A stretch of DNA of 64,000 nucleotides, from the NCBI RefSeq assembly GCF_009914755.1, contig NC_060938.1; one strand, given 5' to 3'. The notes beneath the pieces were generated by a model, which worked only from the letters and a program-made list of their open reading frames with translations, did not search any database and was not told the origin of the DNA. This DNA comes from the human T2T-CHM13v2.0 reference genome, Homo sapiens. The position numbers were made by a program, and so were the translations under genes. Position 1 is the first letter of the stretch; each line of letters opens with the position of its first letter. Positions 4,601 through 10,600 of the stretch are shown in pieces.

Positions 4601-7600
4601 TCAGCAGAGCCCCCGTGTCAGCCTGGATGCCCAGGCCCATGGACGGTCAGGCTGGCACCCAGCAGAAGTGCAGCGCCTGCGGGGGGAGTGCGCTGCCCTG
4701 AGGCTTAGCTGGGGACCCGCATGGAAGGCACTGTCTGGAGAGGTGTCCCCACCTGTCTTCTGGCCTGTGGGTGAAAATCCAGGACACAGGAAGTGTGGAC
4801 CACAGCAGGGCTGGGAGTTGGAGGGGCTGATGCCTCAGTCTCCAGCTGCCTCCAGCTGGGGTCCAGGGTCCCCTTCGCAGGTCTGCAGGACCCAGCTGGG
4901 GTCCCCCGATGCCTGCCCTGGTTCCTTGGTGGGGCAGGTCCGGCAGGTGGCAGGTGCCCCTGGGGTGAGGTGGGGGTAGGGAGGGTGGGGCTCCGTCCAC
5001 CAGCCTCGCACGGCCCAGTGTGGAAGCTCTGGGTTGGCCATAAGTGATTCCTGCACGCGACAGAACAGGCTCGTGTGTCTCCTTGGGGTAATTAAGGGCC
5101 TCACCATCAAGGCCAACTGCCTGTGAAATTACCCTCTTGTTTGGAAGCGGTGATTTTTCTCTGTAAAAAGGAAAATATTTCCTTTTCTGTTGACATGAAT
5201 CGATGGCCAGGGCCAATGAGCCCAGGCAAGGCTGTGGGATTGCAGCAAGACACCTGGTGGCTCTGGGGGCCGTTCAGGTGCCCGCTGTCTCGTTCATCCT
5301 CGCTCACGCGTGTTCTGAGCTTCTTCTGTGAGCATCTGCCCCCAGACCCCCTGCTGGCAGGGACATAGCTGTGTAAACTGGTGTCTCACGGCAGGGGGTA
5401 GTTGCTATAGAAGCAGGAGGCGCAGGGGCTGGGGACACCCATCTCAGGGCATCAGGGCAGGCTTCCTGGAGGAGGTGTCCTGTGAGGATGGGGGCTGTTT
5501 ATGCAGGTGAAGTTCCTGCTTTTCTGAGTCTTCCCTTCTGAGTCAAACCCCTCAGACTTGCCCACTGAGGGCCGCCGCTCCCTGGCAGTGTTGGGTGTGG
5601 GCAGTGTCTGCTGTGGCCTGGGGGAGACAAACCCCACTGCTCAGAAAGTAAGTTCGTGCCTCCACAGGGCCGGGGGCCCTCAGGGGCTGTTGAACCCAAG
5701 CGTGGTAGCCAGATGGGGGCTGCTGTGTCTGACGGTCGTTTCCATGGGGGCCTGAATTTCATCAAAGGAGAAAGTGCCCGTTCTGGGGCCTCGTTAATGC
5801 AGTGGCAGGTCTTTGAGTCATACCAGTGAGGTAAGCCCGTAAAAGCAGGCACCGGGAGGGCCCAGCGGGCTGGGGTGCAGCCTGTTGGCGATGGGCGCCA
5901 GGAGGAGGAGGCGCCTCAAGTTAGGTCAGATTGTGGGGTGGAGATGTGGGGCGAACAACCTTCCAGACTTCCAGGGCTGATGGAACCACAGAGGACGCCC
6001 GGTCCCAGCCTCTGTCTAGGCGGCCTGGGCCCTGGGTGTGCCCGCTGTGGCCCAGGCATACCTGAGATCTGTGCTGCGGACGCTGCTCCTGGGAGGGTCA
6101 CTGGAGGGGCAGAGCCCTTGTGTGGCCGACGGGGCAAAGGGCCAGCCTGGTTTTGGCCTCTGCAGACCTAAGGCTCCAGCCTCAATCTCCCTCTGGCCTC
6201 TCCAAGTGCTGCTCCAGTCTCCAGTGCTTGCCCGGCCTCCGCGTCCCCTGGAAGCTTGGGGGTGTGGGTGCCGATGCCCTATTGCCCACAGCCTTGGGTT
6301 GCAGCTGGTACCTTGACCCTGCCCAGCCTTGGGAGGGGCTGCAGGGGAGGGTGGAGGAGCTGGCTCTGGGTGGGCGTGACCTCTCCCCATCCACTTGAGG
6401 CCGAGCCAACACCCTCCAGTGAGGGCTGGTGCTGGGCGTCCCCCACATCCATTTCCAGAGGAGGAAAGGGGTCCAGGGAGGCTCCCTGTCCCTTATAGGG
6501 GCCACCGTGGGGACCGTCCTCAGCCCTGCCTGTCCAGGTAGGGTGGGGGGCTTCCCACCTGCACCTGCAGGGCCCTGCCCTTCCCCCCGCCCCGCCCCAA
6601 GAAACCTGGGGTCCCAGCCTTGGAGCAGCGCCAGGCAGCAGGGTGGGGTAGCCCTGTCCCAGTCCTGCCTGCTAGATGCGGATGTTTTCCAAAGCGGGGC
6701 CGCAGCTTCTTCCCTTGCGGGCAGCTGGCGGGAAGCTGAGGTGTAACCCAAGGTCGTGGGGTGGGGGGTCTGGAACAGGAGGCTGAGGCTGGGGTGGTGG
6801 GCAGGCAGGAAGAACCCCAAGAGCAGACACTGGTGAAATCCAAGCCTCCTCCCACCTGTGCCCCCAAATGGGCAGATGCAGCCCTGCCTGCCTGCCTCTG
6901 GCCTCGCCCAGGCCCCTGCCCAGTCTCCCTGCCCGCTATGGGGGCTCACTTTGAGGTTTGGGTTGTGGCTCTGCCCTCTGCGCTTCCCAGCGTTCCCCTC
7001 TGCCCGGGCTTCTTGCCCTGTGGACAGACGCACAGACACACAGACAGCGTGGGCGAGTGTGTCGGCCTCCATCCTGTCCCTGATCTGCTGTGTGAGTGAT
7101 CTTTGGGCGACGAGGGCACAAGGGCCTCTTCCTTGCAGGGCAGTTGTGAGGTTTACAGAGACGAGGCTTAGGCACGGTATTGGGTAAATGCTGGCGATGC
7201 TGGGTGAGGTCCAGGGGTCTCAGGCACACAGGCCCGGGCCCCAGGATGCAGGTGCCATTGCCTCCCCTTGCAGGCCTCCCTGCCGCGTTGGGCCCCACCC
7301 TGTGTGGCTCAGCTACCAGAGGGTCGCGAACCTGGGACCCCAGTGACCCCGGAACCCCGAGCATGCGCGGCACGGGGCGGCCATGGGCCCCGACCCCTGC
7401 TCTGACTCACACCTGCATCCTGGGGCCCAGGCCCGTGTGCCTGAGACCCCTGGACCTCACCCGGCATCGCCAGCATTTACCCAATACCGTGCCAGCTGTG
7501 GGTAAGGAACCCAAGTCCCCGAGGCGGCGGGTGGGCTTCCCACACCTGGAACTACCGGGGCTTCTCCTGGGTAGCCGTGGGTTTGGTTCCTGGGATTCTT

Positions 7601-10600
7601 CCTCCTGGCATCCCCCGGCTCCACGTCTTGCCTGGGTGGCCGCAGGCACCGCCCGCCACTGCCCTACTAAGGACTCCACCATGTGTCATAGATTACTTTT
7701 ACTTTCCACGATGACACCTCACTAGGAGGAAAGCCATCCCTGGGGTCTCTTAAGAGACAGCTCCTATTCAAAATGAAAGAAATTAAGCAAAACGCCAGCG
7801 CTGCAGCCGCCGCAGTGGGGGCAGCGAGAGGCCGGGCCCGGCTCTGGGGTGCAGGTCCTTCCACACTGGGGTCAGTTTTAGGGAGTCAAGATAGACGTGA
7901 GAGGCCGAGGGCTGTGGGGGGGGCGTGGGGCATGTTAGGGGACAGAGGAGCCCAGGGTGGGTCGGGGGAGCGCCGGTGGTCAGCGTTCACCACACCCTTC
8001 GCCGGGTGGCATCCTGGCCTCTGGCCCGCGTGGGAGCGCCTCCTGTTGGGAGGTGGTGACACCCAGTGTGTGTGTTCGTTCACCCCTGTGGCGTCCTGGT
8101 GTCCCTGTGCTGGTGGGTCCATGATCCGGGGTAGGGGCTCTGGGTGCCTGCAGCACAAAATGTGCTGGGAGGGTGTGGGGCCCTGCAGAGGTGGGGTGGG
8201 TGGGCCACAGAGAAGCCACCCCAGGGAATGAGTAGGTGTGGCCCAGTGATGGGACCTGGGAACACATCCCCAGCAGCAGGGTTAGCACAGCCAGGGCTCA
8301 GAGGCGCGGCGGGCCTGTACTCTGTGTGTGTGCCTGTCTGCGTGTGTATGTGTGTGCTCTGTGTGTGTATGTGTGTGAGTGTGTGTGCGTGTCTGTGTCT
8401 GTGTGCGTGTCTGTGTGTGTGCGCGTGTCTGTGTGTGCATCTCTGTGTGTGTGTCTGCATTTCTCTTTCTCTGTATATCCTTGTCTCTGTGTGAGTGTCT
8501 GAGTATGTGTGTGTGTCTCTGAGTGTCTGTGTGCCTGTGTCTCTCTGTATATGTGTCTCTGTGTCTTTATGTGTCTGTCTCTGTGTGTGTCTCTATGTCT
8601 CTCCGTGTTTCTGTATGCATATGTGTCTCTATGTGTGCGTCTCTGTGTGTGTTTCTGTATGCGTGCACGTGTCTCTGGGTGTGCCTCTGTGTGTGTCTGT
8701 ATGTGTATGTGTGTCTGTGTGTCTCTGTGTTTCTGTATGCATGTGTGTGTTTCTATGTGTGTGTGTCTCTGTGTGTGTGTCTCTGCATGTATATGTCTCT
8801 GTGTGTTTCTGTATGCATGTGTGTATCTCTATGCATGTGTCTGTGTTTCTGTATGCATGTGTGTGTCTGTGTGTCTCTGCATGTGTTTCTGTGTGCATGT
8901 GTGTCTCTGTCTCCGTATGCATGTGTGTGTCTGTATCTCTATGCATGTGTGTGTCTCTGTATGCATGTGTGTCTGTGTGTCTCTATGCATGTGTGCGTCT
9001 GTGTGTCTGTATCATGTGTGCGTCTGTGTGTCCCTGTGTGCATGTGTCTCTGTGTCTGTATGCATATGTGTTCTGTGTGTCTCTGTATGCGTGTGTGTCT
9101 GTCTCTGTGTGTGTTTCTGTATGCGTGTGTGTGTGTGTCTGTGTGTGTCTCTGTATGCATGTGTGTGTGGGCCTCTGTGTATGTTTCCATGTGCATGTGT
9201 GTCTGTGTGTCTCTGTATGCATGTGTGTATCTTTGTGTCTCTATGCGTGTGTGTGTGTCTGTGTGTTTCTGTATGCATATGTGTGACTGTGTGTCTCTGT
9301 CTCTGTGCATATGTGTGTCTGTGTGTTTCTGTATGCATATGTGTGTCTGTGTTTCTGTATGCATGTGTGTGACTGTGTCTCTGTGTCTCTGTGTGCATAT
9401 GTGTGTCTGTGTGTTTCTGTGTGCATGTGTGTGTTTCTGTGTGTGTCTGTGTGTGTCTCTGTAGGGTGTGCGTGTCGAGGTCCCCTGGGAGTCCACCCCA
9501 GTGGCTCCCAAGCATGCACTGGCCTCCCCTGGAGGGTGTGTTAAACCCAAGCGTCAGCCTCTCCCCTGGAGGTCCTGTGGTCCGGGGGCTTTGGGAGACT
9601 CTGCACCTTCTGGGAGTTCCCTGGGGGCACTGTGGGTGCAGGAATCCCCCACCCCTGGCGGTGCTGGGGCAAGGCTGAGCCTCAGGGTGGGCTTTGGGGT
9701 GGGGAGGCGCTCGCCCTGGCTGAGGGGCAGGGTGGCAGCGGGGGCACTTCCCAGCAGCCCTGAGTGACGAGGGTGGCAGGAGCCCAGGAGCCCAGGAGCT
9801 GGGCAGTGGCTCCAGGATGGCTCTAGGGCCTTGGTGATCGGCAAGGGGCAAGGCAGCCTCACCTGGGGCCTGGGGCTTGGGGTGTGGTAATCTCGACAGC
9901 AGGATTAATTGAGCCCTTCCTGTATGTGGTCACTGTGCTGGGTGCCTTGAGTGTGTCAGTCCATTAGAGCCACACAGAGGCCTCCATTGTCACCTCATCC
10001 CACTTTGGAGATGTAGAAACTGAGGCATAGGCAGGCCAGGTGGATGTGCCCAGGTCACAGCTGTGCATGGCTGCCCACAGCCTGGGCATCGGGTGGGAGC
10101 AGCTTTCACTGTCCGACCCCCGGCAGCGGCTGCAGGTGGGGGATGAGGGCACACCCCTTGGTGGGGGGATGGCATTCAGTGCAGAGCACAGGGAGGGGCG
10201 CTCAGCCTGTGTGGGTCTGGACCCTGTCACAAGCTTGGTGTGAATGCTGGGCAGAGTCCCTGGGGCAGGGACGCCATGGAGGCCCCAGCCTGAACCGTCC
10301 ACTGTAGAAATGAAGTGCAGGCCTCCCAGCCACATTTTGGACTGGGTTTCCTGGGATGGTGGCTGATGAAGTCCCAGGGTGGGATCGCCTGGTGACTCGC
10401 AGGCGGGTGACAGGAACAGCTGCTGTCACCCACCACTGATCCTGCCTCTGCCTCTCCTCCCCAGGGCTATGCAGAAGCTCAGCCTGGCCTCCAAGAGGAA
10501 GAAGCCCCACCCGCCACCGCCTCCAGCCACCCGCGGCACCTCCACCTACCCCACCGACTTCAGCGGGGTCCTGCAGCTGTGGCCGCCCCCGGCGCCCCCC

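What the first reader, a model, noticed from the sequence alone, without database searches (positions are those of the whole stretch)
7171..7493. Non-Alu 84-bp inverted repeat giving a near-perfect dsRNA hairpin in intron 4
Seen: the arms are reverse complements at 81/84 positions around a 155-nt spacer, with no SINE/LINE hallmarks or clear TSD. In the pre-mRNA the three differences are U7201:G7463 (wobble), A7230:C7434 and C7235:A7429. All three are CpG transitions, which points to a young inverted duplication (for example a replication template switch) decaying by methylation. Established: long dsRNA is an ADAR substrate, A:C mismatches are favoured editing sites, and such stems can feed Drosha/Dicer; DNA inverted repeats can mediate inversion of the spacer. 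Inference: possible site-selective editing at A7230/A7429, a small-RNA source, or a polymorphic micro-inversion.
Basis: partly seen in the sequence, partly recalled or inferred. Interest (0 to 1): 0.7.

Follow-up and report, generated by a model that had tools for sequence, protein, structure and literature searches.

The report
Intronic inverted duplication around satellite patch
An 84-base stretch of a KIF26A intron is present twice in opposite orientation on either side of a captured piece of satellite DNA, most likely an old DNA-repair scar that would fold into double-stranded RNA but has no shown function.

Summary
The arms are 7171-7254 and 7410-7493, complementary at 81 of 84 positions with a 155-nt spacer. 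All three differences are CpG transitions. The predicted RNA hairpin is -258 kcal/mol (z -15.9). It is the only inverted repeat of 30 nt or more within 2 kb in the window.

The arms occur nowhere else in the T2T genome, and there is no target-site duplication, so this is not a MITE.

Positions 7251-7408/7410 are about 0.86 unit of a low-copy, GC-rich, ~181-bp tandem-repeat family. That family has an array at chr12 34.21-34.23 Mb (probably gamma satellite GSATII) and five other dispersed fragments. The fragment's edges coincide with the arms' inner ends, and they share 4 nt (GGTG). Two other dispersed fragments carry direct flank duplications of 22 and 47 nt.

Best reading: one microhomology-mediated template-switching or fold-back repair event that patched a break with satellite sequence and copied the flank in reverse. 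The rough age is ~20 My (about 4-70).

Editing, small RNAs and spacer inversion could not be tested. It is an ordinary structural scar with a neat anatomy: a new member of a known kind.

The parts
7171..7254 (+). Left arm of the inverted repeat (84 nt, 65% GC, 3 CpG left). T7201 and A7230 are decayed CpG positions.
7251..7254 (+). GGTG. It is the inner end of the left arm (its complement CACC is 7410-7413) and also the first four bases of the homology to the satellite family. This makes a 4-nt junction microhomology.
   Evidence: The family reads GGTGCC in three units (two on chr7, one at chr10:30.81 Mb), GGCGCC on chr1, and AGTGCC on chrX and in the chr12 unit.
7255..7409 (+). Spacer or loop (155 nt, 72% GC, 11 CpG). 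It is one partial unit (~0.86) of a ~181-bp GC-rich tandem-repeat family, probably gamma satellite GSATII. Homology runs from 7251 to 7408-7410 with sharp edges.
7410..7493 (+). Right arm of the inverted repeat (84 nt, 67% GC, 4 CpG left). A7429 is a decayed CpG position.

Best explanation
This is a scar of DNA break repair or replication template switching in KIF26A intron 4. About 80-84 nt of unique intronic sequence was copied in reverse-complement orientation, and a ~157-nt piece of a GSATII-like gamma satellite was used as a patch between the original and the copy.

Most likely all of it arose in one event. A nascent 3' end left its template and primed by 4 nt of microhomology (GGTG/CACC) at the boundary between flank and satellite. 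It copied the satellite template (DNA or transcript), folded back onto the flank it had just passed, copied it in reverse, and then rejoined the original template.

Which arm is the original cannot be told from this genome alone. The structure is probably neutral. As a by-product, the KIF26A pre-mRNA carries an 84-bp near-perfect duplex closed by a 155-nt loop. This should be a promiscuous ADAR substrate in the nucleus and is removed with the intron.

Shown: the anatomy, the uniqueness of the arms, the repeat identity of the spacer, the coincident boundaries, the microhomology and the predicted fold. Inferred: the single-event mechanism, the age, neutrality and editing.
For: (1) The arms are unique. 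A whole-genome search with the 84-nt arm returns only the two arms (2 of 2 matches). A 901-nt query at E<=10 finds nothing for the arm or flank parts; all 50 matches other than the two to the locus itself fall in query 350-511, which is window 7249-7410.

(2) The spacer is a fragment of a repeat family.
- It is 80% identical over 158 nt to chr7:25.66 Mb, 81% to chr1:245.0 Mb, 86% over 81 nt to chr10:65.36 Mb, and 65-78% to many units of an array at chr12:34.21-34.23 Mb.
- The array has a period of 181 bp, 15.5 copies in the 3.2-kb sample, and 70% matches.

(3) The boundaries coincide. Homology starts at 7251 and ends at 7408-7410, and the arms end at 7254 and start at 7410. The 10 nt left of 7251 match the family at 1 of 10 positions.

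(4) GGTG is shared by the arm end and the family.

(5) Of the 6 dispersed fragments found (chr1, chr7, chr10 twice, chrX, chr14), 3 carry a duplication of their flank.
- chr1 has a 22-nt direct repeat at 95% around a 242-nt insert with no poly(A).
- chr10:30.81 Mb has a 47-nt direct repeat at 91%.
- chr14 has the 84-nt inverted repeat at 96%.
- The fragments start and stop at different phases of the unit, as random pieces of an array would.
- Duplicate divergences of 3.6-8.5% are of one order.

(6) The known mechanisms fit.
- Template switches create reverse-complement copies and perfect hairpins in primate introns, with events up to 83 bases reported (PMC10710096, passages; PMC5453318, passages).
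- Fold-back inverted duplications have a spacer, 2-8 bp of inverted microhomology and sometimes inserted sequence (PMC3907307, passages).
- Breaks are patched with sequence templated from distant loci, with microhomology and without poly(A) or TSD (PMC5110952, passages).

(7) The three arm differences argue against an assembly artefact.
Against: - No outgroup or second human genome could be examined, so the order of events and the ancestral arm are not shown.
- No exact donor for the spacer exists. The best match is 80-86%, and the spacer differs from the majority of the other dispersed copies at 20 of 147 comparable sites, only 5 of them CpG transitions. The arms differ at only 3 of 84. If the source resembled that majority sequence, the patch would be much older than the arm duplication, or the arms have been homogenised by gene conversion. 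Heterogeneity of the source array (units about 70% alike) can explain this but is assumed.
- The outer junctions (7170|7171 and 7493|7494) show no microhomology.
- The right inner junction has at most 1 nt of microhomology.
- Three of the six dispersed fragments show no flank duplication.
- The spacer alone has no unusual DNA structure (z -0.53).
- An 84-nt copy is at the top of the size range reported for short template switches.
- The list of great-ape template-switch events holds no event at chr14:104.14-104.18 Mb in hg38. Those coordinates are recalled, so this is only a weak negative.
Confidence: 0.55

Rival explanations
1. Two separate events. A satellite fragment was patched into the intron long ago. 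Much later, a short-range fold-back or template switch copied the 80-84 nt on one side of it to the other side.
For: The spacer differs from the majority of the other dispersed copies at 20/147 sites, 15 of them not CpG transitions. The arms differ at 3/84, all CpG. Taken at face value the patch is older than the arm duplication. GGTG/CACC would serve as the 4-nt fold-back primer, as in PMC3907307.
Against: Both switch points would need to fall within about 4 nt of the two edges of the older fragment. The spacer has no special self-structure that would bring its ends together (z -0.53). The apparent age difference disappears if the source unit was already diverged, since array units are only about 70% alike.
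Confidence: 0.22
2. A perfect ~168-nt palindrome existed first. It broke at its centre and was stabilised by insertion of the satellite fragment.
For: This would explain why the fragment sits exactly between the arms. Palindrome centres are known break sites (PMC7999016, search listing and abstract only).
Against: It needs an additional earlier event to make the palindrome. There is no trace of centre deletion or asymmetry, since the arms are of equal length. GGTG is shared with the family, so part of the 'palindrome centre' would be satellite sequence.
Confidence: 0.07
3. A selected RNA element: an intronic hairpin that yields small RNAs (a miRNA or endo-siRNA) or regulates KIF26A through ADAR editing. 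Its origin could still be as described above.
For: The duplex is very stable and lies on the sense strand of an intron. That is where most template-switch-associated miRNA loci lie: 81 of the 99 intragenic loci, out of 111 in all (PMC10710096). Two adenosines sit opposite C.
Against: No Rfam family reaches even E<0.1 in 7171-7493; the best is WT1-AS_4 at 17 bits against a gathering score of 60. The RefSeq table gives no miRNA here. The geometry is far from the preferred ~35-bp stem with an unstructured apical loop of 10 nt or longer (PMC10710096): the stem is 84 bp and the loop is 155 nt and structured. The only changes are unselected-looking CpG decays that weaken pairing. No paper links KIF26A introns to editing: the 1 and 2 papers holding the search terms are unrelated by title and abstract.
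Confidence: 0.08
4. A miniature inverted-repeat or foldback transposon with 84-nt terminal inverted repeats.
For: It has long terminal inverted repeats around a short internal segment.
Against: The arms have no other copy in 3.1 Gb. There is no target-site duplication. The internal segment belongs to a tandem-repeat family whose other copies lack these arms.
Confidence: 0.02
5. An assembly or sequencing artefact, such as a palindromic chimeric read.
For: Inverted duplicates can arise from missed hairpin adapters in long reads (recalled).
Against: The arms differ at three positions, all CpG transitions, which is a biological decay pattern. The junctions are clean, and the assembly is a high-coverage T2T consensus according to the hub note.
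Confidence: 0.02

Closest known systems
Short template-switch mutations (four-point model; Loytynoja & Goldman 2017, PMC5453318; Monttinen et al. 2023, PMC10710096)
   Same: A reverse-complement copy of nearby unique sequence creates a near-perfect hairpin in one step. It lies in an intron on the sense strand, and the size is within the reported maximum (83 bases).
   Different: The loop is foreign sequence from a distant repeat family that sits exactly between the arms. One switch-and-return cannot explain this; at least one extra, long-range switch or a captured patch is needed. The authors explicitly leave long-range and multiple switches out of their model. The ancestral state was not available.
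Fold-back inverted duplications with a spacer (Hermetz et al. 2014, PMC3907307)
   Same: The structure is arm - single-copy spacer - inverted arm. Short inverted microhomology lies at the spacer/arm boundary (4 nt here, 2-8 bp there), and some junctions there carry inserted sequence.
   Different: The scale differs: 84 nt and a 155-nt spacer here, against duplications with spacers of 766-70,466 bp there. Here there is no terminal deletion, dicentric or breakage-fusion-bridge aftermath, and the copy was rejoined locally.
Class 2 templated sequence insertions / DNA patches at double-strand breaks (Onozawa & Aplan 2016, PMC5110952)
   Same: A short stretch templated from a distant locus is inserted with microhomology, without poly(A) and without an L1-type TSD.
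   Different: Here the patch is satellite sequence without an identifiable exact donor. It is accompanied by an 84-nt inverted duplication of the flank, and by direct duplications at two sister loci. Polymorphism in people was not tested.
Inverted Alu pairs as ADAR substrates
   Same: An intronic inverted repeat is predicted to form long dsRNA in the pre-mRNA.
   Different: The arms are not Alu and are single-copy. The duplex is shorter, at 84 bp against roughly 300 bp (recalled), and much closer to perfect.

Membership tests
Short-range template-switch mutation (four-point model) | A segment is the reverse complement of nearby sequence on the same chromosome | tested here: met
   81/84 complementary, 155 nt apart
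Short-range template-switch mutation (four-point model) | A single switch-and-return from local template explains the whole change | tested here: not met
   The 155-nt loop is homologous to a family on other chromosomes, not to local sequence
Short-range template-switch mutation (four-point model) | A closely related genome shows the ancestral state without the copy | not testable with these tools
   No primate or second human genome is held. states the genome has no relatives here.
Fold-back inverted duplication | A single-copy spacer lies between the direct and inverted copies | tested here: met
   155-nt spacer
Fold-back inverted duplication | Short inverted microhomology lies at the spacer/duplication boundary | tested here: inconclusive
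   GGTG (7251-7254) belongs to the satellite homology and pairs with CACC at 7410-7413. It counts as fold-back microhomology only if the left arm is the new copy.
TIR transposon / MITE | Terminal inverted repeats shared by several copies in the genome | tested here: not met
   Only the two arms match in 3.1 Gb
TIR transposon / MITE | Target-site duplication flanking the element | tested here: not met
   Flanks are ...GGCTTA and AGCTGT...
Templated patch at a double-strand break (class 2 TSI) | The insert is templated from a distant locus, with no poly(A), no L1-type TSD, and junction microhomology | tested here: met
   Family members lie on chr1, 7, 10, 12 and X. There is no A-run at either edge. 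A 4-nt overlap is present. No exact donor was found.
Gamma satellite GSATII | GC-rich, highly diverged ~190-216-bp tandem repeat with a large array containing inversions at 12p11.1 | tested here: met
   Period 181-190 bp with 70-76% matches. The array at chr12:34.21-34.23 Mb flips strand near 34,221,650. The description is in PMC2588610 (passages).
Gamma satellite GSATII | Alignment to the Repbase/Dfam GSATII consensus | not testable with these tools
   No repeat library is held. The name rests on place, period and composition only.
miRNA precursor | Match to a described family, or a stem of ~35 bp with an unstructured apical loop of 10 nt or longer | tested here: not met
   No Rfam match over the element. 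The stem is 84 bp and the loop is 155 nt and structured.
ADAR substrate | Long, nearly perfect intramolecular duplex in a transcribed region | tested here: met
   Predicted 84-bp stem with 3 imperfections, on the sense strand of an intron
ADAR substrate | Observed A-to-G changes in RNA | not testable with these tools
   No RNA data are held. Literature searches found nothing relevant.

The most novel reading that the evidence does not exclude
The locus would be one of a small set of primate germline repair events in which gamma-satellite (GSATII-like) sequence was used as a patch by a template-switching pathway that also duplicates the flank. The duplication is direct at chr1 and chr10 and inverted at chr14. 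In KIF26A the inverted outcome would have created a lineage-specific 84-bp intronic dsRNA that is heavily A-to-I edited, or diced, in neurons.
Probability: 0.12. Interest if true: 0.5.

Novelty: new member of a known kind. Interest (0 to 1): 0.3.

Why it matters
It gives a clean, fully resolved example of how a long, near-perfect RNA hairpin can appear in an intron in one mutational step. It also shows that the loop can be foreign (satellite) sequence, which short-range template-switch models do not cover.

If primate comparisons confirm a single event, then this locus and the flank duplications at the sister loci would document satellite-patch repair with flank copying in the primate germline.

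For KIF26A itself nothing suggests a consequence. The element lies 5.6 kb and 3.0 kb from the neighbouring exons.

Tried and rejected
- Rfam scan of 6800-7900 at E<=10 gave 7 weak matches, none near its gathering score and none meaningful for the element.
- ARAGORN on 6900-7800 found 0 genes.
- A self-structure of the spacer that might bring its ends together is not supported: the DNA fold has z -0.53, and 53 of 200 shuffles fold as well.
- An exact-motif scan of the genome with a 16-mer of the family gave 19 hits against 4 for the reversed control. The three new CCCG-type hits that I fetched (chr1:169.6 Mb, chr4:185.8 Mb, chr19:54.6 Mb) share only the 16-19-nt motif, so 0 of the 3 fetched hits are family members. 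The other new hits were not fetched or checked.
- TRF on the chr7 and chr1 loci returned no array. These are single fragments of 1.3-1.4 units.
- The supplements of PMC7954356 (file 4, hg38 event list) hold no event at chr14 104.14-104.18 Mb; the only '10417' hit is on chr13. 'KIF26A' is absent. My hg38 coordinates for KIF26A are recalled.
- The supplements of PMC10710096 do not mention KIF26A.
- Literature searches for KIF26A with 'RNA editing'/'intron' and with 'A-to-I' returned 1 and 2 papers, unrelated by title and abstract.

Full report
**1. The observation**

Reading the sequence and running the repeat finder gives arms at 7171-7254 and 7410-7493. They are 84 nt long, 96% complementary, and 155 nt apart.

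A base-by-base comparison finds three non-complementary pairs: T7201/G7463, A7230/C7434 and C7235/A7429. At each of them one arm has CpG and the other TpG or CpA. Pairing stops abruptly at both the outer and the inner ends.

As RNA, 7160-7505 folds at -258.1 kcal/mol. The shuffle mean is -158 with sd 6.3, which gives z -15.9, and 0 of 100 shuffles fold as well.

In the whole 64-kb window it is the only inverted repeat of 30 nt or more with arms within 2 kb. By the hub's gene table it lies in intron 4 of KIF26A on the sense strand, 5.6 kb after exon 4 and 3.0 kb before exon 5.

**2. Not a transposon, not an artefact**

A search of the whole T2T genome with one arm returns only the two arms. A 901-nt query around the element at E<=10 finds no other match to the arms or the flanks.

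The flanks (...GGCTTA and AGCTGT...) show no target-site duplication. Rfam and ARAGORN find nothing. The three CpG-type differences between the arms are a biological decay pattern, which argues against a palindromic assembly artefact.

**3.

In the 901-nt search, every match other than the two to the locus itself falls on query 350-511, which is window 7249-7410. The matches are:
- chr7:25.66 Mb, 80% over 158 nt;
- chr1:245.0 Mb, 81%;
- chr10:65.36 Mb, 86% over 81 nt;
- chrX:20.88 Mb;
- in a second search with the chr1 copy as query, chr10:30.81 Mb;
- dozens of units at chr12:34,211,800-34,230,300.

The chr12 units are on the minus strand up to 34,221,628 and on the plus strand from 34,221,674. 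In a 3.2-kb sample of the chr12 array, TRF gives a period of 181 bp (189-190 bp in sub-arrays) with 70-76% matches.

Warburton et al. 2008 (PMC2588610, passages read) describe GSATII as a GC-rich, highly diverged gamma satellite of ~200 bp (188 bp in one array). They report an array of more than 100 kb containing inversions at 12p11.1. The family is therefore probably GSATII. That name rests on place, period and composition, because no repeat library was available to align against.

**4. Boundaries**

Pairwise and multiple alignments put the homology at 7251 to 7408-7410. Immediately left of 7251 the window matches the family at 1 of 10 positions. To the right of 7410 the similarity is lost.

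The arms end at 7254 and begin at 7410, so the fragment fills the space between the arms exactly.

The four bases GGTG (7251-7254) belong both to the arm (their complement CACC is 7410-7413) and to the family. The family reads GGTGCC in three units, GGCGCC in one, and AGTGCC on chrX and in the chr12 unit. This is a 4-nt junction microhomology. The outer junctions show none.

**5. The sister loci**

The six dispersed fragments start and stop at different phases of the unit, as random pieces of an array would.
- The chr1 insert (242 nt, 1.3 units, no poly(A)) is flanked by a 22-nt direct repeat at 95%.
- The chr10:30.81 Mb fragment lies inside an Alu-like sequence and is flanked by a 47-nt direct repeat at 91%.
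- The chr7 fragment abuts a truncated Alu-like sequence. The junction pentamer GTGCT also belongs to the family unit. The Alu assignment is by eye and from recall.
- I found no flank duplication at chr7, chr10:65.36 Mb or chrX.

So 3 of 6 fragments, including this one, come with a copy of their flank. The duplicate divergences are 3.6%, 4.5% and 8.5%.

**6. Mechanism**

The coincidence of both fragment edges with the arm ends, the microhomology, and the flank duplications at sister loci point to one complex event. A break or stalled fork would have been repaired by a nascent end that switched templates several times:
- flank to satellite template, through GGTG;
- satellite back onto the flank in reverse (a fold-back), copying 80-84 nt;
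- then back to the original template.

Each ingredient is documented.
- Template switches create reverse-complement copies and perfect hairpins, mostly in introns, with events up to 83 bases (PMC5453318 and PMC10710096, passages).
- Fold-back inverted duplications have a spacer, 2-8 bp of inverted microhomology and occasional inserted sequence (PMC3907307, passages).
- Break patches are templated from distant loci with microhomology and without poly(A) or TSD (PMC5110952, passages).

Either arm may be the original. The two mirror-image versions of the model explain the data equally well.

**7. What speaks against the single event**

The spacer differs from the majority of the other dispersed copies at 20 of 147 sites, only 5 of them CpG transitions. 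The arms differ at 3 of 84.

If the donor looked like that majority sequence, the patch is much older than the arm duplication. That would mean two events, with the second one hitting both edges of the fragment within about 4 nt. Alternatively, the arms have been homogenised by gene conversion.

Because array units are only about 70% alike, a donor that was already diverged is a sufficient explanation, but it is an assumption. The spacer has no special self-structure that could bring its ends together (z -0.53). I put the single event at about 0.55, two events at about 0.2, and insertion into a pre-existing palindrome at below 0.1.

**8. Age**

The inferred ancestral arm has 5 CpGs. I used recalled per-generation rates of the order reported by Kong et al. 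2012, which I did not read here. With those rates, three changes in 168 nt give about 20-24 My, with a Poisson interval of about 4-70 My. The chance that all three changes are at CpG, given three changes, is about 0.23.

So 'young' means hominoid or catarrhine age rather than human-specific. The all-CpG pattern is not in itself remarkable.

**9. Function**

Nothing indicates a selected role. Rfam gives no match, RefSeq lists no miRNA, and the stem-loop geometry is far from a Drosha substrate. The only substitutions weaken pairing.

If KIF26A is transcribed, the duplex should form. By established ADAR behaviour (recalled), it would be edited promiscuously at many of its 29 adenosines, 15 in the left arm and 14 in the right. 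The two A:C mismatch sites (5' C, 3' G context) are likely targets among them.

I could not test editing, small RNAs or spacer inversion. Two literature searches on KIF26A and editing found nothing relevant. Two template-switch supplements do not list this locus.

**10. Verdict**

The feature is real and correctly described. Its origin as an inverted duplication is supported. It is better described as a complex template-switch or fold-back repair scar built around a gamma-satellite patch. It is a new member of a known kind, of modest interest.

Noticed in passing
L006:1368-1653 (chr1:245.0 Mb): A 242-nt fragment (1.3 units) of the same satellite family is flanked by a 22-nt direct repeat (21/22 identical). 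It has no poly(A) at either end. This looks like a patch with fill-in of a staggered break rather than L1-type retroposition.
   Followed up: partly
L044:521-714 (chr10:30.81 Mb): A satellite fragment lies inside an Alu-like sequence and is flanked by a 47-nt direct repeat (91%). The repeat is part satellite and part Alu-like, so the junction itself was copied. This suggests serial template switching.
   Followed up: partly
L005:1415-1760 (chr7:25.66 Mb): A fragment of 1.4 units abuts a truncated Alu-like sequence. The junction pentamer GTGCT is shared with the family unit. No flank duplication was found.
   Followed up: partly
chr12:34,211,800-34,230,300 of the own genome (L007, L009 and others): The tandem array of the family (period 181-190 bp, ~70% matches) changes strand between 34,221,628 and 34,221,674, so the array is itself a large inverted structure. 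The extent given is a lower bound from the scored matches.
   Followed up: no
window 8323-9475: A degenerate TG-rich minisatellite of about 1.15 kb (60-nt period, 14 copies, 68% matches) lies 830 nt downstream of the inverted repeat. It coincides with the hub's masked stretches.
   Followed up: no
window 7639-7664 / 8129-8154: A second, weak inverted repeat (26 nt, 73% complementary, 464 nt apart). It is most likely chance in GC-rich sequence.
   Followed up: no
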